Part shown: positions 13,043 to 32,664 of the stretch, in pieces | How positions within the stretch are numbered: position 1 is the stretch's first letter | How the letters are laid out: each line of letters starts with the position of its first letter | Notes under the pieces: model-generated | Told to the model about the DNA's origin: nothing | Database searches by the model: none | Seen by the model: only the letters and a program-made list of their open reading frames with translations | Program-made: the position numbers and the translations under genes | Assembly: GCA_964200075.2 (NCBI GenBank) | Contig: CAXNAA020000038.1 | Coordinates: 1-32,664, forward strand | DNA length: 32,664 nucleotides | Origin: Sphacelaria rigidula | Lineage: Eukaryota | Direction of reading: 5' to 3'

Positions 13043-13984
13043 CTGTGATGGAAAATGGTGATGTTCGGGCGCTGGATTCTCTGTACTGCGCAGGGACATT
13101 GGTACATTCAAACCTATGCACCAAGTTCGGCTTCGGCATGAATAGCTCGAAACTACCCGATTCTCAGAAAAGGAGTAATTCAGTGCTATCTGTTGGCTAA
13201 GCAACACAAACGGGAAAGCTCGCAACTAGTACAGCGGAGTAAAAGGTGCTCGTAGATCACTTGGAAGCACCGATTATATCAGCGTTGACTCAATCGACAC
13301 CTTCTGACGGTTGGATCGTGTTTCGAAGTTAGGTGCAGTCACTCGATCTCGGATTTTTTTCACACCATGTCCAACAGTGGAGAGCGACTATGTCGTGGGT
13401 ACACAAACTCGACTTCACGGTCGACAGGGCAAAGGGGCCGCTGAGCCCCTCTCGAGATTAAAAAAAAAGGCAAGCACCGCAAAAAGAAGAGGGGGCACTG
13501 TAACAAAAGAAAAAAGTTTAAATCTCCAGTGTTGGCCTTCTTCCTGTGTGACCCTGGCTGATGCGCCCACATGTCGTACACCGAAATGTGTAGACTGGCT
13601 TCCAGAATAGATGGGACGCAACACAACATATACATGCGTCGTGTAACCTTGAGGTCACAGAGCACTCCTGGCGACGTTGAAGGAAATATTCGTAAACTTG
13701 CCTCTTGGTGCCGACGGTGGCCTAGGCTGTACATACTCTTACCAACTCCACGGAAATGAATCTACGCAAGGAAATCCGAGGGTGTCCGTCCGGTCTTAAG
13801 CGAAGGCGCAGACCGTGCGGCAATCGGCAGGCTGCTTCAGATCATACCGATGGGCTTGTTCGGCAAAAATGGCCCCTGACCAGGGACGCCCGGAGGGCCG
13901 CCGGAGGCGAGCTTACGGGGGTATAAGCACACCTTCATCATGAAATCATTTGAAAACATGAAGAAGTAAAATTCGACCTAGAAC

Positions 13985-14508
13985 ATTTCCTCGCCTGAGA
14001 CCGTTTCTGACGATTGGTTTGGGGGAAGAGGGGAGGAGCGGATTTTTCAGTTTGGGGATACTTGTTCCAGTCTTGGACCCCCGAATAGGAATATCGCCAT
14101 CAAACGTCTTGAACACTTTGCGTCGCTCCACCGAAAGGAGTCTAGCCCACGTTTACGATCCGCCTGGCTCCGAGGTTTCGATAATGGCCTCTCAACAAAA
14201 ATCCAGCTGGACATGAAAACATGTGAGCACGATGTGGAAGATCGAAAATCGCTACAGAAAACGGTAGGTACCGCACATTCTCTTGTCCAGTCGGTTCTGT
14301 TCAGAGACCATTCTCGAAACCTCGGAGTCAGATGGATCAGAAAAGTGCGCTAGACTCCTCTCGGTGGGGTGATGCAAAATGTCGAAGACATGCGATGGCG
14401 GTATTCCCTGTTTGGGAGCCAAAGACAGAATCAAGTATCCCAAAAACGAAAAATCCGCCCCCACCAAACAAACAATCGTAAGAAATGATCTGAGATGGCG
14501 AGAAAAAA
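13985..14508. mobile_element. Foldback/MITE-like element: ~240-bp imperfect inverted arms with a ~48-bp spacer
   Basis: Arm 13985-14225 aligns to the reverse complement of 14274-14508 along its length, e.g. perfect CTCCGAGGTTTCGA 14168-14181 vs TCGAAACCTCGGAG 14314-14327. No TSD identified. Confidence 0.75.
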
Positions 14509-15861
14509 CGGACCCAATTGTTTTCGTCACCTTCGGCGATTTGGATCGTTCTGCACGTTTTTCCCTTGCGGCGAAAATTATGCACTGCAAAGTTGCTTGG
14601 TGCGGCAAGCCGTGTATGCCACATTGCAAAACACTACGGTGCAAAGCGTGAGCTTTGTTCTCATTTTCACTCCGCCTAGTGGGGAGCTGCAGGAATGCAA
14701 CACCTATCTGAAGCTCTGGCGTTCATCCATGCAACGTACACGTGTCCTAGAATATAGTCGGATACGTACTCGTAAGCACAATCAACCCTGGTACGCCGTG
14801 CATCTGGACACCTCACAGGCAAAGCGTCTCTACTGCGATCATAACCCATGGGCCCTGCAGGTTGTATCGCGCCGAGTATTGTCGTCGGTTGAATCTTTGC
14901 CGTCAATAGATTGTCTACCTGTGCAGAATCCACGAACTGTGCTGCAACATACATCACACGCTGAACGAGAGTGCCTTTGCAGATTGCGAAACGCTGAGAA
15001 ACAAAGCAGAGAACTGAAGAGGAAACGAAAAATGGGTGTGGACTAGGGTGCGGGTCGGAGACGAACGCTGCACGATACTTGCTCCGTGGTAGCTACGACA
15101 GTACGACTGGGGTGCGGTTCTACTGCAGTAGCAGAAAAGGATCCAGGAAAATTCCATATCTCTACTTCATGCGGCGAAAAATAGCACAGAGTAGACGACC
15201 TTTAGATATGGTATTTATTCAATCGGCATTGTTTCACAGAGGATTCGTCACCTTAACTAAAGAGTTCAAAGGTCGGTCGGCATTGGAAGAAGGTCGTCCG
15301 CAGGACATATTTCCCAACTTTGTGTTGTCGGAGCGATACAGAGTAAAACCCTGTTCATCGAGGGGGTGTTATTGACCTCATGTGGGCGAAGAACATGGCT
15401 TTTCGTTTGTAGCTACATAAATATATATCGATAAGACGGAAAACCTGGAGCCATGGAATTGTTCATTATAACCGTCCGGATCGGTTCGGTCGAGGGAAAT
15501 ATCGAAAAGCGAGAACCTGGGGATGTACACTTGTAGGACCCACAAAGACCGGTGATCCCATATCCCGTTCAAAATTGGTCGTAGATGATACGTTTTTTTC
15601 GAAACCTGTGTCGGGCACTCAAATCTCGATTCCGAAGGTTTGGGAACAAACAGAAGCCGTGACGAGTCGTGGTAACCGGAAAACCTGAACAATCGCTTTC
15701 AATCGAAAGTGCGAAGTTTCAAGTTTGATGTCTGTACTACAACATCACAAATTAAAAACATTTTAAAGCGAGTGACGCTTCGCTTACCCTACAGCAGAAT
15801 ATAGTACCGTGAGAGTCAAACACAGAGAGGTGTGCGTGATCAACCTCTCGATCTCCCTTAC

Positions 15862-16121
15862 ATTTCTCGGCAGATCGTTTGAGAATTGGCTCCCACATCT
15901 TCCTTCCGGGGCACATTCCTCTCCGTGTTGTTATCCCTGTTGTTGCAACTCCTGTTGCCACTAGAGGGCGCTCCTGCTTCCCCATCTCGCTGGAGCTCGC
16001 CACCGTCAGCGGTGATTACTACTCCACCAGCAATAACATTTGTCGGCGGGCTTCGGTTGTTGGTGGTGCTACGTTCTGCGTCGGACACAGGGCCGCCCGC
16101 TGGCATCCCAGATATCCCTCC
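15862..16121 (-). CDS. Candidate upstream exon of the large gene (GGISGMPAGGPVSDAERSTTNNRSPP...)
   Basis: Acceptor ctcattagcAG| at 16122, donor AT|GTAAGG at 15861; 260 nt, ends in phase 2, compatible with the 13042 acceptor. Composition resembles the other disordered exons. Confidence 0.35.
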
Positions 16122-17284
16122 CTGCTAATGAGACCCAAGCACCGGAAAAGACCTGGCTCAGGACGCTGCAGGTCGTATGTGCAGGTCAAGCCACACTAGT
16201 TCACTCTTTTTAGCGATCGGATGCGGCAGCATAATATATTTCGAACGATGCAGCGGCTGGCACTAGCGTAGCCCACCTCACGGTTTTTCATTCACGACTG
16301 ATGACTCGTGCAAGAGAAAGAATGCTATGATCCGTCTCCAGAAAGAAATGCAGTACGCAGCAGAGAGAGTATTCCGAGAAACAGGATCCTAGGGATTGAA
16401 CCCTCAATTGGCTTGGTTAATCGTCAGCCTAGTTCTTCTAGTAGCATATGTAAACGTCGCGTTCTGCTAGTGCGTCCTGCTCGCTGTACCATACTTTTTG
16501 GTTTAAGGTGCAGCCCATGCTGAGGTCGGTTCAAGTGCGGACTCTTCACAGGGAGGACGTTACGCCGCAAAACGCGGTGGAATACGCCGATATGACGTAG
16601 TATTACACCCATTGTCATCAGTGTCCAAGCTGTTAGAGGAACACTGTATGGCGGCGAAGGTGATCAACAGTCTTCTGTTGACCGGTGAGGTGCACGGATA
16701 TTTTTTTGATCCTGCGAGGCATGACTTGTTTTTATTTCCTAGATACGATCTGCCTGGTGGACGCAGTGCAGGATTGACTCAGGCGTAAATGATGTGTTGC
16801 CCCACTCACTGGCCGCGGTGTGTGCTTTTTTTGCGTCATCAACAGCGATAAGTTCATCACTCTGACCGAGAACTACTGAGCTGTCCCAACACAGTGCACA
16901 GCAGCAGCAGTAGCAGCGGTAGCGGCGATGAATTCCTGTCTTGCTTGCCGCAGCTCCGCGGCTGATTTGGTGTCACGTGCTTTCTCACCCCCTGGAAACG
17001 CAAGCACCGAATGGGGTCAACACAATCAATGAAGCACGCACCTGCACAAAATCTAATATGCAGTTATGGATATCTCTGCAGTCTTCCAAGGCCCCTGTCT
17101 CCGTTTTGTCCATCATGAGGTATTTGCGGTACAACTCGCTAGAATTGAGTTCCTGCCAACCCGAAAGCCATTTCCGTTCTCGCCCTCAGAAACACGATCG
17201 TGGTGTTGGGTCTGGTTTAGTGTCACGGTTTATACCACCCCTCCAAAAACAAGGCACGGTGGAGTCAACAGAGTCGATGAAGCA

Positions 17285-17650
17285 GACATTACTGTACTGA
17301 TGTAGTGTCCTGCACTGTATTACCCTAGGGTACCAAGGTACGACACCGTACTCGAAGGACTATCGCCTGCCTGCTCTTCGGCTTCATGCACGAGTACGCA
17401 GTACCACATTCATACAGAAAATGACCGTCTGTGTATAGAACCGTTCCACAAATTTGTGATACTGTACTGTCTGTACCATAAAACGGTCACCCCGATTTTT
17501 AGTCCTCGAATTTGACTCCCCTCGTTTTTTTTCAAAATCGGGGTCCCGAAAAAATCGAGGTTTATTGCCATAAAAGTGGGTCTTACGTCTACATTCAGGG
17601 CGTGTCTTCGCACTTTTTTGCGGTCGTTTTTTTTTGCCGATCTGATAGGT
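17285..17650 (+). repeat. Left copy of a diverged inverted repeat pair
   Basis: AGGGTACCAAGGTACGAC 17327-17344 matches the reverse complement of 25629-25646 at 17/18. TGCCTGCTCTTCGGCTTCA 17368-17386 matches that of 25583-25601 at 18/19. Colinear similarity continues to ~17592. Confidence 0.8.
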
Positions 17651-18465
17651 CCCCCGCATTCATGTTTCTAGAAGTCTAAGACACAGGCCTGCGGACAGCA
17701 GGTGTGACTTATCTAACCCGGACGATAGTTGTGTTTAGGTGGTAGTTTCTCACTCGGTGAAAGGGTACGGAGTGTGCGGAGCCGCAACGTGGACTTGAAC
17801 CGGACGGACTTTGCAAGGCAGGGCTTGGGTTGGAACTCAGTGTGGCCGGGTTGGGGGGCTCCGGACGGGAAGCTTCACAGACGGGATTATGACGAGCCCA
17901 GACTGGGGATTGGAGGATGACATTCCCAGAGTGACAGGCCCAGGAAGACGGTCCGGGTTGACTAGCCCGGAGTTGTTAGTGAGCGGGTCGGGTCATATAG
18001 AGGTCATAATACCCCCCCAGCTACAGCAGTGTTAACGCGCGACTCCGCTGAACCTAAATAGAGAGTGGGATTTCAACCTCTAGGGACAAGACCTGACGAG
18101 TTTAGTAACATCTAATCCACTAATGTGGCATGAGGCGTTCCACGAGATGTTGTGGAGATATGCGCACATCGGATGACACTTACAACGGAGGAGCAAACAT
18201 ATAAATATTTGTAGTCAGTTTGACAACGAAGCTGCAGGGTTTTGACAGATGTATTGGCGGACATACGGGTATGTGGGGCAGAACGATTTTTGCCCAAACA
18301 TGGAAACTTGTGACAGACGTGTGACTGCTGAAAAATAATTTACTGAAGTGTGGTGAAAGACGGGACTTAAAACCATGACGGTTTCAACTTTGGCCGAAGA
18401 CATCAAAATTTTCCACCACTACTTGGAGCATGGTTGTAGTAACTTGACAAATGACTAGACGTGAC

Positions 18466-19498
18466 TGTGACGAGATACGACGAAGATTTGTACAAATGAC
18501 GGGTACATGCAATGATGTGCGCAAAAATAATGTTCGCCGGGGTCTTCATCCATCAGCATAGTACATCGAATTTTCCCTGTAATTGATCCATTAGTGAACG
18601 TGGACATTTCTGAAATTTCCTCCATGTGTCATTCCAACAACCTGGGGTCCTAATCCAGCAGGTGTGTAATGTCAACACTTCGGACTCGTCAAGAATTGTC
18701 AGAGATTTCATTTCGTTTTGACGAAAGTGGACACGAGTCGAGTGCGGGTGATGTTTCAAAATTGCTGGGTTTACCAACACTCAAATGACAACCATGACGG
18801 ACGACACTCAACATTTTTTTTATTAGTGAAGGTGACATCAAGTGGTTACGGACTATACGAGCACACAACATGGCAACCGGATGGGGCCCTAATCCATCAG
18901 TGGTGTGGTGTTGGTGTACGTTTTCCAATTATATGCTCATCTTCGACAACGAAGAGTGTAGTTGACAATGCCCAAAAGAAACAGTATTTAATTCGCTGAA
19001 CTGACGAGTATAAGCAAGAAGCGCTTGGCTTCGTCGATACCGTCGAAGACGTTTCCGGTGAGTGACCAGTCCAGGGAACCAAACTGGGGTAGCTCAACAC
19101 GGAAGAACAGTGAGCCACTGTTTACGGGGACGTGATCATGTTGAACCAGCATAAACGGTGCCAACATGGCAATTCAATACATATCGTAAAAGAGTGCACA
19201 AATCTGTACGAGAGACAGTGTGACGCACGCAATTATGATGGACACAACAAAAGCATCCTGCGGACGATGACATAAAAGCAAACAAGAGATGCGGGATAAA
19301 GTGTGCATAACTATGCTTATTGATGTAATCAGTTTCGAGTGATGTGTAAAGCACTCGGAGACGTGAGTGGGCCTTTTCCAAATTTTCAAATATGAAAACA
19401 AAATTGGACACAAAGGTAGACTGACGAAATGCCATCTCGAGAACAAGACGTGATAGCAATTGCACAGATCGACTACACTGAAATACATCCTCGTATCA
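18466..19498 (-). repeat. Putative 3' LTR of the Gypsy element; start at 19498 supported, far end uncertain
   Basis: The minus strand reads G14 then TGATACGAGGAT, i.e. PPT followed by TG. The best imperfect terminal inverted match seen is TGTGACGAGAT at 18466. No second LTR copy was found to confirm. Confidence 0.35.
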
Positions 19499-19512
19499 CC
19501 CCCCCCCCCCCC
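19499..19512 (-). other. Polypurine tract (G14) of the retrotransposon
   Basis: C14 run on the plus strand immediately abutting ...CGTATCA, ~450 bp downstream of the pol end. Confidence 0.6.
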
Positions 19513-19974
19513 TGCTAGATCACCAGGAAAGAGACTCAAAAGACACATTTGAAACGCGACAGCTAACGAAGGCGGTCGGCTCGAGAGGTACAGATCGCAT
19601 ACATGAGGACGTATGTACACACTCAAGTCCAACTGTAGGGCGCCGTATATCACCCCAGTTGACGTACACACACAAGTGAAGAAGCATGTTCACTTGAGGT
19701 TCGGACACAAGAACCAAGACGAGGTGCAGAATACACCGGTACACCTATGGCGAACGACGCGTGCCGACAACTAGCATGTACACACGGCACCAAAACGTGA
19801 CGAAACCACGAACTTGCCAAAAACATAAAAGGTGTACGGACATAGCTATTGGTAGTCCCCACGGAGTTGCTACTTTTTGCTGTTCAACAATGCGGGGAAC
19901 ATCGAAGGCTCACGAATCATTCGATAAAGTGATGACCCGATAAGATTCCACCATCTCCCGACACTGGAGAACCT

Positions 19975-21300
19975 CTCAATGATGCTTCCAGATGCCAATC
20001 GCTGGTGCACGACCTTTCAACATGGTACTTGAAGTTGTTCGAAGACGCACTGCCAACGCCTCGCTCATGACCATCGATGGCATCGACCATATAGGGACCC
20101 TGCTTGGCAACAGCAGGGGAACCTTCGAGGGCTGGGACTGGTGACGGATGCACTTAAAACAAAATGTCGTCCCGGGCTGCAAAATCGGGGACAGACAAGT
20201 TGAGGGTGAAAGGTACATTTTCAATCTTCCGACGAAAACGGTGATATGACTTATATCGCCGTCTTTACTGACGCAAGATATGACTGGGGACAACTCTGCA
20301 CGGACCGTACATGAACCGCGCCACGGGCTGATTAGTTTGGGATTTGGACCATCAGTCGCCGTGCAGGGACGGTGGAGCAGTACTTGCTCTCCCATGTTCA
20401 AGTGGGAAATGACACATTAGCTTTGACGGATGCTTGTGAATCAGCTCGCTCTTTACGATTACGTCGGGCTAACTTGTACACAAGTTGTAACCGCTCGACC
20501 GCTCGACGGTCTGCCTAGAATACTCCGACGATGACTGTGGAGCCGATGTTGACGGGACACCGAGAATGACATCTACTGTAACACTGCAGGGCAGCCAAAC
20601 ATGACGAAGTGGGGCGTTTCTTGCAGCGTAGTAAAGTAGGCAGTATTATATGCGAATTGGCAGAAGGGCAAAAAATCAACCCAAATGCGACATGCAATAT
20701 CGTTGTACATAGCGAGCATGTTGTAGACGGTACTGTGAACACGCTCAGGGACGGAGTTGCCTTGGGGACGATAGGCAGGTGAGAGTTTTTTGTACCCAAA
20801 GACAGTTTGAAGTTATTTGACAAGTTGATCTTCAAACTCTTTGGTTGGTCTGAACGTGACGGTCCTGATGGACTGAAGACAGAAATAACATGTGTGACTA
20901 GCTGAAGGGTCACGATAGTCGCGAGCTTGTCAGGCTCCGTTATTAAAATGACAAACCGAGTTAAGTGGTCAATGATGGACAAAATGTACCGGTTACCCCG
21001 AGACAGGGTTTGATACTCGACTAAGTCCACTGCTACACGCTGAAAGACGCAAGTGACTTCTCGGTGTCCCGTGGGGAGCTGAGGTATGCGGCGAGACATT
21101 TTACGGTGTTGACAAGACTGACAATGGTCGATATGCTGTTGCACATCGGAATGGATAAAGAGCCACCAGTACCGGTCTCTAATGCTATCAAAAATGCTTT
21201 GAAGGAGAGGTGACCGCCTGACGCGGGTAAATCATGACACGCATGAATGACTAACGAGCAAAGTACGATGGGTACTACCAGCTGATCACGGGAATCCGAT
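19975..21300 (-). pseudogene. Integrase (HHCC, DDE core, GPY/F module) plus chromodomain-like tail, frameshifted
   Basis: ACHDLPASGGH...HCQSCQ; FQRVAVDLVEY...NRYILSIIDHLTRFV...SDQ; GEQVLL...PKLISPWRG; YMVDAIDGH...FKYHV...W. Confidence 0.9.
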
Positions 21301-21649
21301 CGCTTTCGCAAATTACCCGGTAGGTATTACCCGAAAAGCCGCCCTTCAAGAAGGAAGAAATGACTCATCGTGTACTTGTTTTCATAACGTGGGAGTGGAC
21401 TAGACTCTGGTTTACGCAGGTACGCAAAATATTGACTGTACTCTGCTTCCTGTTGGGCGGTAAACGGGTCGGGATCAACAAGGGGGAACACTGACACAGC
21501 ACTCGCAATCACTCTCTACGGGAGCGATATTGTCCAAGTTGTGAGCTGAGACCTCAAAACTCACGGGGTCACGGCGAATGATACGGTTGATCGTCAGGGA
21601 CATTCCGATATATTGTCGCAAGGCGAGGTTTCGAGACAACATCCTCGCC

Positions 21650-23040
21650 GTGAGTACCGCCAAGCAAACGTGACATCGCGTCGTGCACGACATTTAATTC
21701 ACCCGGGACATGCTTTACTGTAAAATCAAAGCTTTGCAGTTGAATCGACCAATGGGTCAGCATGTTGCTGGTGTCCTGCATCCGATGAAAATGACAGAGC
21801 GCTTGATGATCCGTGTCGACTGTAAAATGTCTTCCCCACAAGAACGAACGGAAATGCATGAGCGTCGAGACTACGCCGCAACATTCTTTGTTGGGTGGGC
21901 TAGTGTGAGGCTGAGAATTGGAAAAAATATCTACTAACGTACGCGATAATACTGACATCATCGAGGAATTTAGAGTTCGGGGTGGTGTCACCCAGAAGAG
22001 CACCCAGAGCAACCTCTGAGGCGTCTCTGTGCACTGCGAACTCTTTCGTGAATCTGGCAATTTCAAGGCTGGTGCACTGGTCAACATACGTTTGATGGGG
22101 TCAAAAGCTGCAGACTATTCAGAGCCCCGAGCTTCCAAGAAGTTATGTTTCTTTTCACAACCTTTTTTTGTGAGAGCGACGAGGGGACCAGTGATTCCGG
22201 CGTAACCTTTGATGAAACGCCTGACAAAAGTCATCATGCCCAAGACTGCCAGAAGTTATTTGATTGACTTGGGGGGCTCGAGGTCGCAGATGGCTGTCAT
22301 GCGGTCTTTACCGATGGAGACACCGTCGGTAGTGATGACGTGACCTATGACTTTCTTAGGATCGAACTGAATTTTGGACGGTTTGAGGATCAGACCTGCT
22401 GCTTGTAATGCGGACAGTATGAGACGAAGGGACTTGAGGTGATCGTCGAATGTATTACTGGTGCACAAAATATCAAACATGTAACGCAGCATACCAGAGT
22501 CTGGACCCAAATGTCCGAAGACGATAGGCATCATACATTCATGCAACGAAGGGGCAGGCATGACACCAAACGGCTTGCGTAAAAATACATATCTACCGGA
22601 CGGGGTAGTGAAACGTGTCTTGTCTACATCCACAGCTGCAGGAAGTTGCCAGAAGGCCGACATGATGCCCGCGACAGGGATAAATAAGCACCGCCTACAG
22701 CGTTCGAACACGTATCCATATTGAACATAGAATACGATTTACGGATTAGATACTCGTTGAGAGTGTTGAGATAACCAGCGCAAATTCTCGGTGAGCCATC
22801 TGCTTTTTTCGCGACGGTACATGACGGAGAACCCCAGGCGCTAGGGCGCTCTGCGATGATCTTCAATTCGAGCATATCTTTGACACACTTCTCGATGGCT
22901 TCGGCTGTACAGGGGTTGGAACGGTACGGTGGTTCGTCGACTGGGATAGTATTTTCGGGGACGCGTAAAGCGTATGGTGCAAGTACCAAGCTCGTGCATA
23001 GACAATGAAAACACCAGCCGGGATTCGGCTCACAAGTCAC
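21650..23040 (-). pseudogene. Reverse transcriptase and RNase H, frameshifted, catalytic YxDD mutated to YMFD (22472-22483)
   Basis: PPYR...PSAWGSP...KKADGSPRIC; AFWQL...KTRFTTPSGRYVFLRKPFG; LTSAPAL; FLWGRHFTVDTDHQAL...WSIQLQSFDFTVKHVPGELNVVHDAMSRL. In-frame stop at 22256. Confidence 0.95.
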
Positions 23041-23589
23041 GAACACGGTCTTGCTGTTCTACTGTGAAGGTGGTATCACGGAAACATGAGACAGGAGTTC
23101 TTGGAGATCATCCTTAGCCTTAACTCGACAGGAGTATGGGGACTTTTGGCTACTGCATTTACGTGCACTTGAGCAGGATCGAATTTAGTGACAGTGTACC
23201 AATTACCAAGAACTAAGCCTGTGGGTAACGACACGGCTTCAGACGATGTGTTTGCAATTTGGACTTCAACAGGACAAGAACTGACCAGTGAGACAAAGTA
23301 CCTGCGACTATCCACGACTCAAAAACGACGGGACGGCCTACTGTTGACATTTGATCCGGTGTGACCAATCGAGGTTCAACAACGACGGCACAGGCACGGA
23401 TAGGGCGACAGACTGTAAACGCTAAAAGGAGCGCCTCGTGAAAAGGTTCGACAGTGACGTGTTCTAGCAAGGGGCCAGATATTTGTGGAGGATCAACCTG
23501 CACTGCTGCTACAGTATACTGTGTTCTGCTTGAAGGTGGGACTGACTGTTGACTACGGTGTACTGCGGCAATAGTAAAGTATCCCGTTG

Positions 23590-24290
23590 AAAAGGACAAC
23601 GTTTGGTTTGACCAGTTCAGTGTGGCGCCGAACTTCGACATGCAGTTGCTGTCAATAAGTAGAGAATCCTGATGGGGCAATAAGTGCTCAGACACGACGG
23701 GTGACATTACCGAGGGTTATTAGAAACGCCACAAACCCAAGGTCATCGATTGGCGAACAATTTGCTGCACGGAGCGAAATGGCCGCCGGGGGTACAGGAG
23801 GCAGGCAATTTCTGCAGCATGGGGTGGGACTTCAACCACGCGGCGGAACAGACTGAACAATCAGTTGCAGTGTCTACGGTAATATCGATAACCTGAACTG
23901 GACCAACTGATCCTGAGATGCGGACGGGTCTCGAGGAAAACGCAAGTGACAGAGGTCCATGCTGTGTACTCAGCGAGGAGATGTACCAAGGTATGTGCGT
24001 ATCATCTTTATTGGCAGGATCGGGCGCGGACGGCGGACGATCTAAGGGGTCATGCGCAAGCGCGGCAGGCGAGGCTACAGTGCCAGTTCTTGGCTTCTTC
24101 CGAGGTGGACTAGACGAAACAGCCACGTTTGACGGAACGGCTAGTGTAACAGTTGTAGCAGATGATACATGAGACGAGCCAGATGTGACAGAGCGACGTG
24201 GCGTGCACGCTGATGGACAGTGCAGGCAGTTCAAAGCTGCACGTTGCTGAAGTTATCTTCACGTTCGCAATGTAAGCAGAGAGACCCGAT
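23590..24290 (-). pseudogene. Gag C-terminal zinc-knuckle remnants and aspartic protease
   Basis: LCLHCEREDNFSN and NCLHC/HATSLC (frameshifted CCHC-like). Protease ITVDTATDCSV and LLIDSNCMSKFGATLNWSNQTLSF. Confidence 0.75.
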
Positions 24291-25414
24291 AGTCCTGGGC
24301 TGTGTGCACCGCACGTTGCCCGCTTCTCTTTTATATCCTCCTGTATGAAACACACACAAACTCAAGACACTGCCTGTTAGCAGTGCAGATAGTACAGACT
24401 GTACTGTACACGAGTGGCCATGTATCGTTTCACGAATTCCACTGTTTTTTTTCGATCGAAACCTTGGAAATTCATCTGGACCCAACCACATCAAAACGAG
24501 AAAAAATTGCTCAAATCAATCCCACCGCCCCATCTGTTCGATCGGGAAAAAAAAATGCTCAGACACGCCCTCACTACGCACACAAACGGAACACACTAAC
24601 AGCCATCATTCACGTCCACCGTTATTCTCGTATCGTCGCGATAATGTTGCGATGTTTCATCATCGTGAGTTCGTCCAGACGTTCACCATTTCAACTATCA
24701 TAGCGGCAACGGTACATCACCTTGAAACGTGGGTTTCTAGTTGGTATCCATCTTGGCTCTCCTAGCAAGTATTTTTTGTGTTTGTGGCTGTGTGCCTAAA
24801 TGCATCGCAAACTCTGTGCGGGACGTTTGAGCATCAGCGATGCGGCCGAATAGCCTACTGAACCCAACAAAAAAGCACGCATGGCCCTTGCTGGCGAATT
24901 CAAGTGTGCTGGACCTCGTGCAATACCCACGGTGTTCATTTTTGTTACATGTTGCGGGGAAGGCATTATCATGTAATTTGTGTCGATAGGTACGCAGTGT
25001 ATTTCGTCGACCAGCTCTACCAGCCTTCCCTTCGCGTTTGGAAGTCAGTACAACACGTTTCAGTCAGTTCACAGGAAAGGGGATTATAATTTCACGTCCA
25101 AAAATCGGCAAGGTTGTCTAACTTCTGTGGCGCCGTTTAACTTTCGGTATGATGTAACTCCCGTCAAATCTATTGCAATAAAATGCTCATGATCCGTAGG
25201 TGATGCGCGTACTTCTTGTTCTCATAGACCACAAAACGCAAGAGATCCCAACATGTGATGTCAACACATAGGTCACCACAAAATATAGGCGTAAGCATGG
25301 TTTGTACTGAGGTGAAGCCAAAACTCGATTATCGAGCCGTTCACTTGACGCTATCGGACTTCAACCAAAATCTTTTGTTGAAAAGGTTTTATATGACCCC
25401 GCCAAATTCTTTTC

Positions 25415-25690
25415 AGTAGGACGTTAGACTGTTTCCTATGGTGATCACTCCCGAATCTGGCGGGGCCCCAATCTGTGCCAAACCGGGGAGACTCGAATTC
25501 GTGAAACTCGGATCCGTGTGTAACCCTTTGTGGTTAGTTCTGTAAACAGGGGGTCGCTTTCTGCAGGGGTGTGGTATCACAGTGAAGCCGAAGAACAGGC
25601 ACGCAATTAATCAGTCTTCAATGGCAGCGTCGTACCGTGGTACCCTTGGGCATGCAGCACACTCCACCATCACAGTACACGATAATGCCG
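25415..25690 (-). repeat. Right (inverted) copy of the 17285-17650 repeat
   Basis: See the left copy; colinear inverted similarity with indels. Confidence 0.8.
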
Positions 25691-25860
25691 TGTGCTAGTA
25701 CGTGATGGTACAGTCCGTATTGCGAGAATCGTGAACAGTGTGCGAGAAGACTCAGGTAGTGCAGTGCCGTTCATCACCCTTCAAGTACAGCGACAGCAGA
25801 AAGTAGGATAGTACAGTACCGTTCGTGATGGTGGTACATACAGCAACGCATTGCCGCCGC

Positions 25861-25934
25861 GCCCCGGTGGTGTAATGGTCCGACTGTCGACATTAGGTTG
25901 GGGAGAACGAGGCTTCGATTCTCGATGTGTCGGG
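25861..25934 (+). pseudogene. tRNA-like sequence (tRNA pseudogene or tRNA-derived SINE head)
   Basis: GCCCCGG followed by an A-box (TGGTGTAATGG) and a B-box-like GGCTTCGATTC inside a CGAG/CTCG stem at tRNA-like spacing. The acceptor and anticodon stems do not pair. Confidence 0.55.
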
Positions 25935-26045
25935 TTTTCTGCGTACTATCTAATTTCCACCCTGGAAAGCGTGAGAACGGGAGTAAACCAAGTAGTAGGC
26001 TGCGTTTGTTTGACGTGAAATGACGCGGTGCGGGAGTAGTGCTGA

Positions 26046-26060
26046 CCCTAACCCTAACCC
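26046..26060. repeat. Interstitial telomere-like (CCCTAA)2.5
   Basis: CCCTAACCCTAACCC directly visible. Related GGTTAGGG motifs occur at ~1534 and ~31626. Confidence 0.7.
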
Positions 26061-28685
26061 AAAATGCAAGGCGTGTATCGGGGGAGAGATGGAATGATCC
26101 TTTGAGATCACGGACTTGTCCCGAGGAAGGGGAGGGGTTCAGAGTACGATAAAAAAAAACGAAATGCAGCTAAATATATTACCCTCGCCGCAGGGTACGG
26201 CATCGACACTTCGTATCTGCTTGTCAAACCCCGTGCGAAGCTGCTCCAGCAGCTGGCGCTGGCAGGCACGGCCCGTTCTGTCACGAGACTGTCTGCTACT
26301 GCGGTTGCAAAAATATCAAACGCCTGTTGCCCTATCACCGTGCGTCGATGTAACTACGTCACTTCCGACAGATTCGGGGGACCTCGATTTTCCCCCGACC
26401 TGGGCTCAGATTCGGGGAAACCATTCTCGTATCGTGACATACGAATCTGAGCTTCCCCGATTTGGGCCAAGTTGGGGTCCATGACAGGCGTTTCCTGATT
26501 TGAGTTCACCCGATCTGCGTACAGATCGAGATCGGTGACGGCCATGAAAAATGGTCATAGAAATCCCAAAACTACGGGCGTCACCTTGGCGATGTAGAGA
26601 TCGATGTATTGCGAGGGCAGCTGTCAGTCTCTCTCAAGACCATGATTCTTGTTCGCCCCGGTATGGTGAGCACTAACCCTTACATAGCCCAGTTGAGCAA
26701 GTGGCCTTCTGTTGGCCTGGCTATTCAGGGGTTTCGGAATGGTTGTTTAAATTAGGGACAGGATGCCTACATCGAAACAGGGGGGTCCGGGCCCACCGAG
26801 CCGTAGCCGCCCACATCTATATGTCCGTGTCGTCGTGGGTACAGCACAGGCTATGCAGTACAGACAGTACCGTGCATTCATTTCGGGTGAATCGAGACCA
26901 TCATGAGAGGTGGCCGTGCTACCACCGCATGTGGTATGGCATGTACGAAGGCCTTCCAAGCCGGAGTCTATACGGGTGCGCCGCTGTGAGACTCCTCGCA
27001 GAAGCCACAAGGCGCCCCACAACTTGAACCTGCGTGCTCGACCGTGAACATACCGCCATTGCTACACTCGCCATGATCCAAAGGAAAAAAGTTTGTATTT
27101 TTGTCTGATTCAGCTCCCGAGAGCCGTAAAAGGGCCATTGACACATGGGATTGACATACTCCAAATATTTGCGCGACTGTAAGGACGTGTTTTCGGAATA
27201 GAAAGCGCTGTGTACCATGAGGGTCGAAGGTACGATAGCATCCGACCTATCTCGTCCCATGTAACCTCATTTCTCCCCAAAATGTCAATTGTACTTTACC
27301 CTTCAACCATAGAACGCACTAGAAACGTTCTCACGATCGTTTCACTCGCTGCGTGCTGTATTTTGCCTCAGCACAATGGACGTCAAGTGTGCAGTATCAA
27401 ACTCTGAAATCGGTCATTTCATCATCATCTACGAGAACGCGAAGGGGTGCAAAAGTCCTTACGATGTGTAACGTAAACCTGTAAAATACGTCCAAACTGA
27501 TGAATATTTTGCAAAAGTGGGCACAACAGACACACGTCTAGCTCAAACACAATGGTTATCTTCCACTCTGACATCTGAAACATGATTGAAGTCACTCTGT
27601 ACCCCCTGACGTATTCTCTCACTGAAACGACAAGTGGGACACGCTAGCAGCCATCGCTCAAGGTCAAGGCTGTGCTCTTTACCTCATCCAATACCATGGT
27701 GGATCTTTGTTGATCATGGTTGCGTCTTGACCTAGCTGCCTAGCTGTTTTATTTGCGGAAGCGATGTGTCAAGTTAGTGCTCGGTGCATCCGAATATATT
27801 GTGTCTCGGCGATCCATCACATAGGATTCGCTTCAAGAGATACCGTGTGAGCAGAAGCATCAACTCTGTGCCAGATATTTGAGCATAGAAGTCGCGGCCA
27901 AAAGGATAACTGACAGCAACATGGTGAGCTCGGTGGTTCCGCATCACATGGCTCTTTTCGCCGAGGTTTATCCGAATCCGCCGAACCTTCCGCAACAAAA
28001 CGATGACAATACTACTCTTTTGGGTCACGGGGATCGCATCAGTAGCGAAGGAAGAGATGTAGCAGGCGATGTTTCGCAAGAACAGTCGTTGCTCGCAACC
28101 CCACGGGGACGATTCGTGCGCGATAGGAGGAGAGGGGGGGGGGGAGGGGGGCGAACATCAAAGCAGCGACAAGTGCCGCCTTCCCTTGCCCGGCACGATG
28201 TCATCTGCGTCAAAATGTCGATTACACTTTGGTCTTCACTTGATGAATGTTGCAATCGTTCCCAAAACCGGCCATACTCGCCGCGTGATGCCAAGTGGCG
28301 GGGTCAAGCGTGCCTCGTCCAGCAGGGAAAAAAGGCGATTGTCGTCGTAATCGACATGCGGAAGCACTTGAGGGTCGACATGAAAGACGGGGACAGGGCA
28401 GGGCGGAACACTGTGTCTGTGTTGCGTCAGCCACTTTTATCTCATTGTATGCATTTTTGAGCGCCTTCGTTAATCCTTTTGGCACTGGCATTGGAAAATT
28501 GTGACATATGGTTGAGTATTTACAGCTTTCACGCAAAACTAATAGCCCGAGGTGTGTTTCTCAGACCCGTATGAAAATATGCCCCAGCGCCGCACGGGAC
28601 TCCGTATATACAAAATAGACAGGTGGTGCCGATATTTTTTTCACTCCTTGGAAAGTACAGTATCTTTCCAATGTAAAGTAGTCGA

Positions 28686-29064
28686 TTATATTGCAATGTG
28701 ACGGTATATTGCCGCCGTGGAACTGCCAACATATTGTCCGCCTAATATATATTGGTACCATAGGGCTGCACATATTTTGTCTCATCAAGATTCGTTGGGG
28801 CCATGTGGGCGACGACATGATGGATGAGCAGTATATGTTGGGGTCTCATTCGGGTGATGGCAACATATTGGCAGGTCGATATATATTAAGCTCGTGTGGG
28901 TGACAACACGTTGACGTTGCCCGGTTAACATATACTTCGAAGTATTGGGGTTGTGGGGGTGATAACATATTGCCCGACCAATATATGTTGAGGCTGTACA
29001 GGTGACCACATATTGCCCGACCTACATCTATTGTCGCCGTATGGATGACGACATATTACCGAGC
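28686..29064 (+). repeat. Degenerate ~43-bp tandem array (block L) of ACATATTG-N6-CAATATATRTTG plus a 17-nt linker
   Basis: 12-mer positions 28700, 28743, 28786, 28829, 28877, (irregular unit), 28979, 29022, plus a half-site at 29051. Confidence 0.8.
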
Positions 29065-29545
29065 GTATGCAGCAGTATATTACTCCGGTACTCTACTCTG
29101 CCGGATCCTGGAAGTCATCTCGTCCAAAGACTCTCCCATTCAATGCATACCAATATGTAAATATTTTTTTGGTATGCGTGCTGTTCAGTGCCAGATCCTG
29201 CAAATATTCTGGAAGTAGAGGTGCTCAGGGTACAATGCAAAGTCTCTTGTCGCAACGCGCTTTCGCTTGCTTGCGATCCCGGCAAGGCGTGAAACATACG
29301 TTGTTGAATAGTACATACGTTGTTGAATGTATACATGCGCAACATATATATACGTCGTTGGAACCCTGATACTATAGCTCCGACAAGTCTTGCAAGGTAC
29401 AGCAGACAGTACGTGATATTTGTACTGTACCGAATGTCGACCCGCCGGAAGTTTGCCATGCATACGATATATGTATTGGCCGGAAGACATGCAATAAGAG
29501 GCGAACCGGTGTATCTGCCCATCACACCATGAACAAAACAATATG

Positions 29546-29691
29546 AATTATATATTGCCTGCCTAATATGTTGACAAATCGCGTCTTCAATATTTATTGC
29601 CCGAGCAATCCACCCAGACGTAGATCAAAACATATTGTGATCAATATGTGAAAGCTCGCGATATGCAATATACATCCGCCGAACAATATAC
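29546..29691 (-). repeat. Same motif in reverse orientation (block M)
   Basis: AATTATATATTG-cctgcc-TAATATGT at 29546, CAATATTTATTG-cccgag-CAAT at 29588, further copies at 29626 and 29666. Confidence 0.65.
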
Positions 29692-29899
29692 ACCTTTTGA
29701 TACCTATCCGGCCACCGGTGCGGTGCCGCTTATCCCCTTCACAATATGTATTTTATATTGGCCAAAACGTACGACGATAGGAAAGGTGGCTCGATACGTG
29801 CCTTTTGGTACCCCTCTCGACACCGATGCTGGGTTGCTTTTACCCTGGACATACAATATGTTCCAATATGATATCAATATTTTATACTGGAAACTGCTC

Positions 29900-30983
29900 A
29901 AGCATTGTCCTCTCAATATATTTTGTGTTGAGACGTCCTTGGAGATATTGAACCAACAATGCAGCACACATTTATTGTGCCTTGATCGCGAAGTGATGCA
30001 TGCCAATATATATCGGACATGCATTTGCTCCGGGAACAAAACGTTCAATATGTATTGGTCCTGCCGGCCGTTTATGTATTGAAGTGTCAATATATGTTGA
30101 GTCGAAGCGGCGCGTAACATATTATCGCCATAATATATATTGAACTCGAACCATGCAAAATTATTGTTTTTTCAACGAACATATTGTGTTCCCCTCTGTC
30201 CAAACAATACAATCCAACCATCCATCCATCCATCCAACCACCCATCCTCAATCAACCTTTGAATAATTAATTCATAAGTTAAAAAAAATACGATACAACC
30301 ATCCATCCATCCATCCATCCAACCAACCATCCAACCATCCATCCTCAATCAACCTTCAATTTATTAATTTATTTATTATACATGTATATATTGTGCACGC
30401 TCACCGCGTAGCTATTGTTCAACCAATATATATTGGACACGCTCGCGGAGGAATGTATTGAGCGTTTTCGGGATCTGGTGGCACACTTTCCAATTGGCAC
30501 ATGCGAACATGAAAGTGCCCGCCACACTAGTTCCTACGCACTTTCCAATATACATAGTGAGTCAGTGATATATTTATATTTGCTCCCCCAATATATATTA
30601 TGACGATCGATTCCCTCGGGTTTTGTTCGCCCAATATATATTGGACGAACTGACGGCACGACGTGTTGGGGCGGCAATATATATTGGCGCTTCCGGTGTT
30701 GAGTGTATAGAATCGTCAACATATATTGACTTCGTGTGGCAGCGAATGTATTACTCGACAAATAAATATTGGCGCCTTACCGCACCAACATACTACTCGA
30801 TCAATATCTATTGAAGTGGCGCGTGTCGTGACATACTGTTCGGCCGATATATGTCGCACGTTGCGAGTCTTCACATGTTGACCGCACACTATATATTGAC
30901 CCGTCTCTGGTGCCATCATATTGCTCGGCCAATATGTATTGAACAAGAAAAACGTTGACATATTGGGCGGGCAATATATGTGC
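29900..30983 (+). repeat. Phased 42/43-bp repeat-spacer array (block R)
   Basis: 12-mer starts at 29914, 29957, 30004, 30046, 30088, 30131, 30173 | 30382, 30424 | 30546, 30589, 30632, 30675, 30717, 30760, 30802, 30845, 30887, 30930, 30972. Confidence 0.9.
30206..30372. repeat. Tandem duplication (~81-bp offset) containing a (CCAT/CCAA)n microsatellite
   Basis: AATAC.AT.CAACCATCC...CATCCTCAATCAACCTT..AAT.ATTAATT occurs at 30206 and 30287. Confidence 0.9.
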
Positions 30984-31222
30984 ATGTATCATTTCACTTT
31001 TTTCATCACTTTTGCCGAGTTCTCTCTGTCGACAAGGCATCTTATCACGCGCTTTTTTTTGCAGTGCACGGAGAAGGCGCAGCGGTACATTACCTTTCAG
31101 GTTTGGGTGTCATGTGATACTTGTGGCGCGTGTTCTGGCCATCGAAAGTCGCCCGCACTGGCTCTTTTTCGCCGGGTCTCGATCCCGAACCACAAAAGCT
31201 TTCCCAAGTTCATGAAAACCTT
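30975..31222 (+). repeat. Copy A of a ~250-bp dispersed direct repeat
   Basis: Aligns to 32271-32509. By hand count, 35 mismatches in a 183-nt gap-free core (~81% identity). Confidence 0.9.
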
Positions 31223-31559
31223 CAAGCAGCAGGATGATTGTTGCGGGGTATTTCCCCCCCGTGTTTCTCTTCGTCGGGTTCTCGTTCATTTGGGAGCAAG
31301 ATTACACCGCTCATACCGCCACGAGAACATGAGAGCAACGTAGTTGAACACAATTGAACATTGCCTTGGCCTTAGTCAGCAGCAAACACCAGACCGTGCG
31401 GTGAGCCTTTGATGAGGTGAACAAGGCACACACGTCGGCAAACGTCCCCACTGTGGGTTGACCAGTAGAGGGCGGTGCCGAGAACCCCGTGATCATGCAA
31501 CCCGTAGGATGCACTTGTGAAATACAGGCGCAGGGATATCCTTGTGACAGGGTTGACAG

Positions 31560-31749
31560 TGTAATGTGTGAGAGAACCGCGTGCTTAGAGGACCGCATCG
31601 GACTTTGAATATTCCTACGAGGTATGGTTAGGGTCAGTGTCCGGGTTATGGTCAGGGGCGTAGTATCTGCAGGGGCTGGCCCGATTGGTTTTGAAAAACG
31701 TCGATACTGAGGTGTTTTGAACTACGGCGCGGTCCTCTCACGCATTACA
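31560..31749. mobile_element. 190-bp non-autonomous element with TGT...ACA ends, 22-bp TIRs and a probable 5-bp TSD
   Basis: TGTAATGTGTGAGAGAACCGCG (31560-31581) matches the reverse complement of 31728-31749 at 20/22. Flanks are GACAG (31555-31559) and GACAT (31750-31754). Confidence 0.75.
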
Positions 31750-32270
31750 GACATGTTTGTCCTTGTGACAGGAGTGACAAGGAGAATCATACGAGTACGC
31801 ACCTCATGTATCTTTCGACGGCTTAGTACAGTATTTTCAGTACAAGTCAAGTGTCACTTTGCTTGTGGATTTCTGCGCCGTGTCTGAACGAACCACCCTG
31901 AAAATTGGCATAGAGGTAGACCACAACACAGACAGCATATTCCTGTATCGGCGGCACGTTTTACGTGGTGCGCCAGACGCACGAAGTGAATACGGATTCT
32001 AGGCAATGTCATCGATGCGCTCTCAACACGGACTCCCCTCGGCCCAGACTGTGTGAGACGTCAGTAAACGCATATGTGGACACGCAGATGCGCTCACTTC
32101 CACACGATGACCTGCTGGGTGGCTCCTGCCCCGGCAAACCAGCATCGATCCGTATTGGGTGCACTCTGGATTTTGTCATTCTACGCAATACCTATCTTGG
32201 TATCGCCTGTAGAGGTACTCACTTCAGGAGGCACGGTCGTGCAAGCGCTGTCAGTGCTTTTACGCGCAAT

Positions 32271-32509
32271 GTATATTATGCACATGTATCATTTCACCGC
32301 TTTTGCCGAGTTTTCTCTGGCGGCAAGGCGTTGTTTCCCACACGTCCTATTGCGGCGCACCGACAAGGCTCAGCGATACATTACCGTTCAGGTTTGGGCG
32401 CCATCTGATACCTGTGGCGCGTGTTCTGGCCACCGAAAGTCGCTCAAACTGGCCTTTTTTCGCGGGGTGTCAATCCCTAACCACAACTCTTCAAGATCGT
32501 GGAAAACTT
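32271..32509 (+). repeat. Copy B of the ~250-bp dispersed direct repeat
   Basis: See copy A. Confidence 0.9.
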
Positions 32510-32664
32510 GACAAAATATATTTTCGACTTGCGTCACCCGCGGGAGGCCCGTACCAACCTCCCGAAGGAGAGCCGTGTATATATGTAGAGAGAGCAATGG
32601 ACTAGAAAAGGTATACCTTCTCGTTTTTTGCCCAAGAAAGGTACGAAAAATGGCCAAAAACGCG

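What the first reader, a model, noticed from the sequence alone, without database searches (positions are those of the whole stretch)
29900..30983. Helically phased palindrome-spacer array: fixed 42/43-bp period with variable spacers
Seen: a ~26-bp motif ACATATTG-N6-CAATATATATTG (three ATATTG half-sites; N6 usually centred on CG) recurs with steps of 43,43,43,42,43,42,43,42,43,42 from 30546 to 30972. The 16-17-nt spacers are largely dissimilar: GACGAACTGACGGCACG, GCGCTTCCGGTGTTGA, ACTTCGTGTGGCAGCGA, GCGCCTTACCGCACCA, AAGTGGCGCGTGTCGTG, CACGTTGCGAGTCTTC, ACCCGTCTCTGGTGCCA, AACAAGAAAAACGTTG. A neutrally decaying minisatellite should erode motif, spacer and length alike; here motif and spacing are kept while spacer sequence is not. 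Inference: ~42.5 bp is about four helical turns, so this may be an iteron-like platform for a dimeric DNA-binding protein, such as subterminal transposase sites of an unrecognised element. Alternatively it is a source of processed hairpin-plus-spacer RNAs, since each unit can fold ATATTG/CAATAT. I do not recognise it as a described family.
Basis: partly seen in the sequence, partly recalled or inferred. Interest (0 to 1): 0.8.

Follow-up and report, generated by a model that had tools for sequence, protein, structure and literature searches.

The report
Phased palindrome array in mobile element
The strictly spaced palindrome array is real, but it belongs to a mobile DNA element present in hundreds of copies in this alga-like genome, and it most likely serves as a row of docking sites for a DNA-binding protein of that element.

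Summary
Eleven copies of CAATATATATTG-like palindromes start at 30546-30972 with steps of 43,43,43,42,43,42,43,42,43,42. Each is preceded by ACATATTG plus a 6-nt linker. Pairwise identity is 0.79 for the palindrome and 0.24 for the 16/17-nt spacers, which equals the shuffle level of 0.25. The array is larger than reported (28729-30983, four sections, one of them inverted).

It is not a locus-specific structure. Contigs of three DNA runs pile on 29669-32600 at hundreds of times single-copy depth, with spacers included. Where other copies differ inside a palindrome, they restore the consensus.

The last four units have an inverted copy 1.1 kb upstream. Between these homologous arms the motif is 58/80 identical and the spacers 26/54. 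Hairpin pairing shows no covariation.

Best reading: a repeat-built end region of a non-autonomous transposon, with the 26-bp tripartite site kept by element-level selection as a multi-site protein landing pad. Protein binding, superfamily and true termini are inferred, because no genome, transposase or target-site duplication was available.

This is a known kind of structure: curated Ectocarpus KDZ, EnSpm and DNA9 elements are annotated with tandem-repeat or palindrome-rich termini. Interest is moderate to low.

The parts
30532..30983 (+). Section C, strict run: 11 units of 8-mer (ACATATTG-like) + 6-nt linker (..CG..) + 12-mer palindrome (CAATATATATTG-like) + 16/17-nt spacer; period 42.58 bp
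30410..30531 (+). Proximal part of section C: one good unit (30410-30435), then degenerate units
30176..30414 (.). Insert rich in (CCAT)n and AT, made of two similar pieces; absent from 1-2 contigs at single-copy depth in each of three runs (joint 30175>30415)
29900..30190 (+). Section B: about 7 units in plus orientation; palindrome steps 90, 42, 42, 43; high-copy in the runs
29529..29703 (-). Section B': about 4 units in inverted orientation; left arm of an inverted repeat with 30826-31005. Paralogous contigs stop aligning at 29522 (two contigs) and at 29549 (one contig)
30826..31005 (+). Right arm of the inverted repeat: the last 4 units of section C plus 22 bp beyond the last palindrome
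28729..29058 (+). Section A: about 8 looser units (steps 43-53); mostly low-copy in the runs; no spacer homology to B or C
30971..31225 (+). About 250-bp segment that directly follows the array. It is repeated at 32263-32510 behind a single degenerate unit and has about 5 times the depth of the array in the runs
32263..32510 (+). Second copy of the 250-bp segment (79-81% identical), preceded by one degenerate unit; lacks 9 bp present in copy 1 at 30997-31005

Best explanation
The array is the repeat-built end region of a multi-copy mobile element that is non-autonomous as far as this window shows. Each 42/43-bp unit carries a 26-bp tripartite site: ATATTG, then 6 nt centred on CG, then CAATAT|ATATTG. 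Selection at the level of the element keeps this site, while the 16/17-nt spacers are free to drift in sequence but not in length.

The most likely function is a row of equally phased docking sites for a sequence-specific, dimer-forming DNA-binding protein supplied in trans. This would be the family's transposase or an accessory end-binding protein, which coats the element's end co-operatively.

Diverged spacers would also protect the array from collapse by recombination between units.

Shown: the array, its phasing, its multi-copy dispersed nature, the excess conservation of the motif, the inverted arms, and the lack of hairpin covariation.

Inferred: protein binding, the identity of the protein, a role in transposition, and the recombination-protection idea.
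For: 1. Multi-copy. At 80% likeness or more, 14,295, 14,326 and 15,576 contigs of runs X1, X3 and X4 lie on 28400-32600. The contig identical to the window (28519-29870) has depth 30.6. Array bins from 29669 to 30937 have summed depths of 3,187 to 20,744 in X1, and 50-70 contigs cover single array positions. Paralogous contigs align across spacers, for example 30580-30814 with 40 other letters and 4 gaps.

2. Other copies have better palindromes. Of the 7 listed variant positions inside 30410-30983 (40 of 639 rows were shown), 2 lie in a palindrome, and both restore CAATATATATTG in most of the depth. These are 30808 C>A (16,846 of 17,217) and 30720 C>T (1,905 of 3,454).

3. Constraint between units: palindrome 0.79 against spacer 0.24, with a null of 0.25. 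Yet all 10 steps are 42 or 43.

4. Constraint between homologous inverted arms: 12-mer plus 8-mer 58/80 identical, linker 19/24, spacers 26/54 (Fisher p 0.006). This is not a base-composition effect: A/T sites are 46/54 identical in the motif against 13/25 in the spacers (p 0.004). Spacer CpG is not depleted, with 18 observed against 11.9 expected.

5. The inverted repeat 29529-29703 / 30826-31005 has BLAST E 6e-13. Two paralogous contigs stop at 29522, near its outer edge.

6. The sequence is conserved as sequence, not as pairing.

7. Precedent in brown algae. [quoted passage not shown]

8. The locus is stable. Contigs of two other samples span 30472-30920 and 30442-30703 with 4 and 1 other letters and 0 gaps.
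Against: No transposase or other DNA-binding gene was found in the window. Pfam scans of 108 ORFs gave only degenerate Ty3/gypsy domains and one EsV-1-7 motif.

No target-site duplication or known terminal motif could be read at the edges of the inverted repeat (sequence).

The left arm (29528-29668) has a depth of only about 195, roughly 6 copy-equivalents, so the inverted repeat is not the family's common form.

The 250-bp segment that follows the array crosses the outer edge of the right arm and is about 5 times more abundant than the array. The true terminus is therefore unresolved.

Depth rises towards the right, which would also fit a 5'-truncated retroelement.

Summed contig depth is only a rough proxy for copy number. 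The arm comparison rests on 4 unit pairs.
Confidence: 0.5

Rival explanations
1. A neutral minisatellite carried inside a transposable element. In this reading the motif looks conserved for non-selective reasons: the AT-rich core is renewed by slippage, or there is short-tract conversion between palindromes or a mutation bias. The array would then have no function.
For: Tandem arrays inside TEs are common. The Ectocarpus table lists 'internal tandem repeat' for Copia-11, Copia-12, Copia-N3, Ngaro-1 and Ngaro-N1. Tandem-repeat-containing MITEs are described in PMC3879986 (search listing only). One contig joins 30643 to 30911, which is a copy with fewer units, as unequal exchange would give. No binding protein was identified.
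Against: The spacers are at random level while the palindrome is at 0.79. By my estimate, from a Jukes-Cantor correction of the identities and not a tool result, this needs a rate difference of more than ten-fold. A/T sites in the motif are far better kept than A/T sites in the spacers between homologous arms (46/54 against 13/25). The consensus G/C positions 8, 15 and 26 of the motif are each kept in 81% of 21 units. Spacer CpG is not depleted. No indel occurs in 10 consecutive units despite saturated spacers. Conversion tracts would carry spacers along (inference).
Confidence: 0.2
2. A TE-borne array of sites for a host DNA-binding factor. It would act as an enhancer, insulator or chromatin-nucleating module carried by the element, rather than as a transposase platform.
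For: This shares the same evidence for sequence-level constraint and phasing. Arrays of host-factor sites with variable spacers inside mobile elements are known; the Su(Hw) site array of Drosophila gypsy is recalled, not checked here. The array is about 1.1 kb long, which is more than end recognition usually needs (inference).
Against: No host factor or motif match was tested. The association with an inverted repeat and with the edge of paralogous contigs points to an end function.
Confidence: 0.15
3. A source of structured RNA. Each unit would fold as an ATATTG/CAATAT hairpin, and the transcript would be processed into hairpin-plus-spacer or phased small RNAs.
For: The 409-nt run folds better than its shuffles on both strands (z -3.46 and -4.64). 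A run guessed to be RNA (X6) holds a 188-nt contig of a paralogous array.
Against: The minimum-energy folds pair palindromes of different units, not the unit hairpin. Unit hairpins average -2.0 kcal/mol against -1.4 for shuffles, and 5 of 17 units do not fold. There is no covariation: 78.0% paired against 77.4% shuffled, with 177 of 500 shuffles as high. In X6 the array bins are among the weakest relative to the DNA runs, and the RNA label is a guess.
Confidence: 0.05
4. A single-locus host or viral structure, such as an iteron-type origin, a partition site or a phaeovirus repeat region.
For: The architecture resembles origin or partition site arrays. The window encodes an EsV-1-7 motif ORF.
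Against: The array is dispersed in many copies. No viral contig holds two palindromes 42-43 bp apart (0 loci). A relaxed single-unit pattern gave 6 loci with one hit each. The long ORFs have no close relatives in viral contigs.
Confidence: 0.03

Closest known systems
Repeat-built termini of brown-alga giant and non-autonomous DNA transposons (Ectocarpus KDZ-3, KDZ-4, KDZ-5, KDZ-N1, EnSpm-N1, DNA9-N3; PMC12477816 supplementary table, read)
   Same: Same lineage-type genome. [quoted passage not shown] They are often gene-less.
   Different: None of the terminal pentamers listed for these families could be recognised at the edges found here. No 8-, 9- or 2-bp target-site duplication was seen. The library sequences could not be read, so identity with a curated family is untested. 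The published notes do not mention a fixed 42/43-bp phase or a tripartite site.
Subterminal repeat regions of CACTA (En/Spm) and hAT elements, which bind TnpA or the transposase at many short motifs
   Same: Many copies of a short motif, in direct and inverted orientation, near an element end. The motif is conserved and the intervening sequence is not. Dimeric or oligomeric binding is involved.
   Different: Those motifs are irregularly spaced over 200-300 bp. Here there are 25 or more units over about 1.1 kb with a strict 42.58-bp period and a composite 26-bp site.
Tandem-repeat-containing MITEs (DTC84 of the clam Donax trunculus, PMC3879986; only the search listing and the start of the abstract were seen)
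   Same: A high-copy non-autonomous element that carries a short tandem array next to a microsatellite and is flanked by inverted repeats.
   Different: Those core repeats are described as repeats of whole units. Here only a 26-bp motif is alike between units and the spacers are unrelated.
Arrays of protein sites with variable spacers, such as the Su(Hw) site array of gypsy and the EBNA1 family of repeats of EBV oriP (recalled, not checked here)
   Same: Works-like analogy: multiple phased palindromic or short sites with a conserved motif and freer spacers, which load many copies of one protein.
   Different: Different organisms, motifs and periods. No evidence of an insulator or origin function here.
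CRISPR arrays
   Same: A superficial repeat-spacer look with a partly palindromic repeat.
   Different: This is a eukaryote-like genome. The spacers are 16-17 nt and are conserved between the element's copies, so they are not acquired sequences. No cas genes are present. The array is not a member.

Membership tests
Dispersed transposable element (any class) | Many similar copies at different genomic places | tested here: met
   50-70 contigs per array position in each of 3 DNA runs. Summed depth is 3,187-20,744 against 30.6 for the contig identical to the window. Paralogous contigs are 80-87% alike and diverge from the window at 29522 and 29549.
Class II (cut-and-paste) DNA transposon | Terminal inverted repeats at both ends | tested here: inconclusive
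   Inverted arms 29529-29703 / 30826-31005 (E 6e-13). However, the left arm is present in only about 6 copy-equivalents, and the 250-bp segment crosses the right edge.
Class II (cut-and-paste) DNA transposon | Target-site duplication flanking the termini | tested here: inconclusive
   No direct repeat of 2-9 bp could be read at 29528/29529 and 31005/31006. The copy is old (arms 71-76% alike), so decay cannot be excluded.
Class II (cut-and-paste) DNA transposon | Transposase gene, or a known autonomous partner | tested here: not met
   Pfam scan of 108 ORFs of the window: only RVT_1, RT_RNaseH, Integrase_H2C2 (a degenerate Ty3/gypsy at 20.5-22.7 kb) and an EsV-1-7 motif. A partner elsewhere in the genome could not be sought because no genome is held.
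KDZ / EnSpm / MuDR-like superfamilies | Superfamily terminal motif (for example CACTG/CACAG for EnSpm) and TSD length (2-3, 8 or 9 bp) | tested here: not met
   The edges read ATGAAC... and ...TTCAT. No CACTG-type end and no matching TSD were found, compared with the termini listed in PMC12477816. The true termini may lie elsewhere.
Ordinary (neutrally decaying) minisatellite or 85-bp dimer satellite | All columns of the unit decay alike; odd and even units keep their own homology | tested here: not met
   Palindrome 0.79 against spacers 0.24 (null 0.25). The 17-mers score 0.235 and the 16-mers 0.219 among themselves. The gapped test gives p 0.21.
Structured-RNA or hairpin repeat | Base pairs kept by compensatory change | tested here: not met
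   78.0% paired against 77.4% in shuffles. Two pairs have a double change, against a shuffled mean of 1.4.
Protein-binding site array (iteron-like) | Sequence-specific binding of a protein to the repeated motif | not testable with these tools
   No candidate protein in the window. This needs EMSA or DAP-seq.
Curated repeat family (Repbase, Dfam, Ectocarpus library) | Sequence match to a library consensus | not testable with these tools
   The library FASTA files of PMC12477816 cannot be read here. Rfam gave no match. Full-text search for the 12-mer found 0 papers.

The most novel reading that the evidence does not exclude
The element carries a self-stabilised protein 'zipper': 25 or more tripartite palindromic sites held at exactly four helical turns, with spacers recoded to block recombination. 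A TE-encoded oligomerising protein would spread along it. That protein could be a transposase filament, or a ParB-like or methyltransferase accessory protein of the kind reported on Ectocarpus Sola1 elements. The result would be condensation or epigenetic marking of the transposon end, which would be a mode of end recognition or self-regulation not described for eukaryotic transposons.
Probability: 0.1. Interest if true: 0.65.

Novelty: new member of a known kind. Interest (0 to 1): 0.33.

Why it matters
If the 26-bp site is a real docking site, this family offers a clean natural example of how a transposon keeps many binding sites in phase while letting the DNA between them drift. It would also give a defined motif with which to find the cognate transposase or accessory protein in brown algae, whose DNA transposons are abundant but poorly classified.

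There is a practical point too. Tandem Repeats Finder misses the strict run, so such arrays are likely to be left unannotated or split in automated repeat libraries.

Tried and rejected
- Whole genome: none is held for this window, so copies, termini and an autonomous partner could not be collected.
- Earlier scan notes: four look-ups by place, sequence and words gave nothing relevant.
- Metagenome scan for two perfect palindromes 42-43 bp apart: 2 loci, both ordinary perfect 21-bp and 42-bp tandem repeats in AT-rich contigs, unrelated.
- Viral contigs: 6 single chance hits and 0 hits.
- The 1061-aa and 524-aa ORFs have no relatives in viral contigs. The protein atlas gave no lead for the 1061-aa ORF (best score 0.78).
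- Protein search with the ORF over 30900-31340, hoping for translated paralogues: none.
- Rfam on 25000-32664: one sub-threshold chance hit. No tRNA genes.
- RNA evidence: no RNA holder is listed for the stretch. Run X6 is only guessed to be RNA.
- I tried reading the 250-bp direct repeat pair (30971-31225 / 32263-32510) as LTRs of a miniature retroelement. No primer-binding or polypurine features are visible, and the contigs continue consistently beyond the second copy, so I dropped this.
- A 20-nt inverted match, 28405-28424 / 31924-31943, is at chance level and was dropped as a terminus.
- I did not search the 16-17-nt spacers in large collections, because chance hits are expected at that length.
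- Literature: searches for the 12-mer (0 papers), for brown-alga centromere and tandem repeats and for phaeovirus repeats gave no description of this array. The TE library FASTA supplements of PMC12477816 could not be read and may hold this family.

Full report
**Observation**

The region was read directly. Twelve-mers like CAATATATATTG start at 30546, 30589, 30632, 30675, 30717, 30760, 30802, 30845, 30887, 30930 and 30972. That gives steps of 43,43,43,42,43,42,43,42,43,42, exactly as reported. A line fit gives a period of 42.58 bp with a maximum residual of 0.64 bp.

Each 12-mer is preceded by an 8-mer like ACATATTG and a 6-nt linker. Over 21 units the consensus is ACATATTG-nnCGnn-CAATATATATTG, and CG sits at the linker centre in 12 of 21.

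The 12-mer with up to 2 mismatches occurs 29 times in the window against 0.93 expected. None of 100 shuffles reached that, and 23 of the 29 lie in 28743-30941. A 26-mer weight matrix at 14 bits or more gives 20 plus-strand hits against 0.08 expected.

Tandem Repeats Finder does not report the strict run. It reports only a 43-bp period with 2.2 copies at 28965-29057.

The array is therefore real, far beyond chance, and larger than stated. Its layout is:
- Section A, 28729-29058, plus orientation, steps 43-53.
- Section B', 29529-29703, inverted units.
- Section B, 29900-30190, plus orientation.
- A CCAT-rich insert at about 30176-30414.
- Section C, 30410-30983, plus orientation.

**Motif against spacer**

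In the strict run, mean pairwise identity is as follows:

| Part | Mean pairwise identity |
|---|---|
| 12-mer palindrome | 0.79 |
| 8-mer | 0.54 |
| Linker | 0.38 |
| Spacers | 0.24 (shuffle null 0.25 +/- 0.017) |

The 17-nt spacers among themselves score 0.235 and the 16-nt spacers 0.219. The 85-bp dimer reading therefore leaves no trace except the alternation of lengths. Gapped alignment of the spacers is also at null level (p 0.21).

Spacer CpG is not depleted, with 18 observed against 11.9 expected. Deamination of methylated CpG therefore does not explain the loss of spacer similarity.

A uniform-rate decay is excluded. If spacer similarity was lost by substitution alone, indels should also have accumulated over that time. 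Yet all ten steps stay at 42 or 43. The indel expectation is my inference from usual indel-to-substitution ratios.

**The array is part of a dispersed repeat**

No genome is held for this window, so I used public runs that hold the stretch and laid their contigs on 28400-32600 at 80% likeness or more.

- All 4 runs could be laid, with 14,295, 14,326, 15,576 and 595 contigs.
- The contig identical to the window (28519-29870, 0 differences) has depth 30.6 in X1, which I take as roughly single-copy.
- Bins 28823-29668 have depths of 39-195.
- From 29669 rightwards the summed depth jumps. It is 3,187-17,294 over section B and 5,907-20,744 over section C.
- It reaches 35,420-108,234 over 30938-31360, and up to 439,188 over a nested MITE.
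- Single array positions are covered by 50-70 contigs per run.
- Contigs at single-copy depth align across several units, spacers included, at about 83-87%. Two examples are 30580-30814 (40 other letters, 4 gaps) and 30387-30621 (30 other letters, 7 gaps).

Summed contig depth is only a rough proxy for copy number, but the conclusion is robust: the array with its particular spacers exists at many places in the genome. The spacers are unlike each other within an array, yet they are inherited between copies. They are not acquired or hypervariable.

Contigs from two other samples span the same locus, 30472-30920 and 30442-30703, with 4 and 1 other letters and no gaps. The locus is therefore not length-polymorphic there.

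One contig joins 30643 to 30911, so copies with fewer units also exist.

**Other copies carry better palindromes**

One search shows 40 of 639 variant rows. Seven of those lie in 30410-30983, and 2 of the 7 fall inside a 12-mer.
- 30808 C>A, in 16,846 of 17,217 depth.
- 30720 C>T, in 1,905 of 3,454 depth.

Both changes turn this copy's deviant 12-mer back into CAATATATATTG. The window's copy is thus a slightly decayed member of a family whose consensus keeps the palindrome.

**An inverted repeat built from units**

A self-BLAST of 27000-32664 against the window found that 29550-29689 is an inverted copy of 30833-30979 (71% over 149 bp, E 6e-13). MAFFT and local alignment extend this to 29529-29703 against 31005-30826. 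Here the spacers are recognisably homologous, so the two arms allow a like-for-like test:

| Part | Identical between arms |
|---|---|
| 12-mer plus 8-mer | 58 of 80 |
| Linker | 19 of 24 |
| Spacers | 26 of 54 |

Fisher's test for motif against spacers gives p 0.006.

The difference is not due to base composition. A/T sites are identical at 46 of 54 in the motif but at 13 of 25 in the spacers (p 0.004). Within units, the consensus G/C positions 8, 15 and 26 are each kept in 81% of 21 units.

Two paralogous contigs stop aligning at 29522 and one at 29549, close to the outer edge of the left arm.

**What speaks against a simple TIR element**

- The left arm has only about 6 copy-equivalents of depth.
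- I could read no target-site duplication at 29528/29529 and 31005/31006.
- A roughly 250-bp segment that follows the array (30971-31225) crosses the right edge. It recurs at 32263-32510 behind a single degenerate unit (79-81% identity). It is about 5 times more abundant than the array.
- Copy 2 lacks the 9 bp at 30997-31005 that end the inverted arm.
- Depth rises to the right, which could also reflect 5'-truncated retroelements or many short derivatives that share one end.

The true termini and the class of the element therefore remain open.

**No coding partner in the window**

Pfam scans of 108 stop-to-stop ORFs (16, 92) found the following:
- RVT_1, RT_RNaseH and Integrase_H2C2 on the minus strand at 20.5-22.7 kb, which is a degenerate Ty3/gypsy element.
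- One EsV-1-7 cysteine-rich motif in the 571-aa ORF at 7823-9538.

The EsV-1-7 motif, together with runs labelled as an algae metagenome, points to a brown-alga-like genome. ORFs over the array have no family.

**The RNA or hairpin alternative**

The 409-nt strict run folds better than shuffles on both strands (z -3.46 and -4.64). However, the folds pair palindromes of different units, as any array of palindromes would.

The proposed unit hairpin is marginal. It averages -2.0 kcal/mol against -1.4 for shuffles, and 5 of 17 units do not fold.

On 21 aligned units the 8-bp helix is 78.0% paired against 77.4% in column-preserving shuffles (177 of 500 shuffles as high). Only 2 pairs change on both sides, against a shuffled mean of 1.4. 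The motif is kept as sequence, not as pairing.

**Comparison with what is known**

The supplementary table of the curated Ectocarpus TE library (PMC12477816) was read, and passages of the main text. The table annotates:
- KDZ-3, KDZ-4, KDZ-5 and KDZ-N1 with 'complex termini featuring tandem repeats'.
- EnSpm-N1 with 'complex palindromes in subtermini'.
- KDZ-1 and EnSpm-2 with tandemly repeated termini of variable copy number.

Repeat-built transposon ends are thus a described feature of brown-alga mobile elements. The library FASTA files could not be read, so I cannot say whether this very family is curated.

None of the terminal pentamers listed there is recognisable at the edges found here. 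The fixed 42/43-bp phase and the tripartite site are not mentioned in the parts I read.

Subterminal motif clusters of CACTA and hAT elements, and protein-site arrays such as the gypsy Su(Hw) array or the EBV family of repeats, are functional analogies recalled from general knowledge. They were not checked here. Tandem-repeat-containing MITEs (PMC3879986) were seen only in a search listing.

**Verdict**

The structure is best filed as a new, or possibly already curated, member of a known kind: a transposon end region built of tandem units. It has an unusually strict phase and a clear signature of constraint on a 26-bp composite site.

Protein binding, the identity of the protein, the element's termini and its superfamily are inferences. 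They need the whole genome and bench tests.

Noticed in passing
window 31560-31749: A 190-bp MITE with 22-bp terminal inverted repeats (2 mismatches) and an apparent 5-bp target-site duplication. Its centre is a degenerate telomere-like (TTAGGG)n tract, and other copies carry intact TTAGGG runs (loose ends). It is by far the most abundant piece of the stretch, with summed depth 360,000-440,000 against about 30 for single copy. Contigs lacking it join 31556/31559 to 31755.
   Followed up: partly
window 30176-30414: A (CCAT)n/(CCAA)n microsatellite plus an AT-rich block, present as two similar pieces, interrupts the array. One or two contigs at single-copy depth in each of three runs join 30175 to 30415 without it.
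   Followed up: partly
window 28400-28822: A separate high-copy stretch (summed depth 2,257-3,868 against about 30) lies directly left of array section A. Its relation to the array family is unknown.
   Followed up: no
window 5220-13107, minus strand: Three long stop-free frames in a row (524, 571 and 1061 aa) are unusual for an intron-rich alga-like genome. Only the 571-aa frame has a Pfam hit (EsV-1-7 cysteine-rich motif, E 3e-5, just under the curated cut-off). None has a close relative in viral contigs, and the protein atlas gave no lead for the 1061-aa frame.
   Followed up: partly
window about 19000-25000, minus strand: A degenerate Ty3/gypsy retrotransposon: RT (22256-22738), RNase H (21569-22114) and integrase zinc-binding domain (20515-21231) lie in separate broken frames. 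No LTR pair was detected in the window.
   Followed up: no
window 14035-14461: A large imperfect inverted repeat (arms 14073-14200 and 14295-14422, 128 nt, 77% complementary, flanked by a second 55-nt pair). It looks like a foldback or MITE-type element.
   Followed up: no
window 5592-5718: A coding-frame-compatible 9/18-bp tandem repeat (ATCACCAAC-like, about 10 copies) lies inside the 524-aa frame.
   Followed up: no
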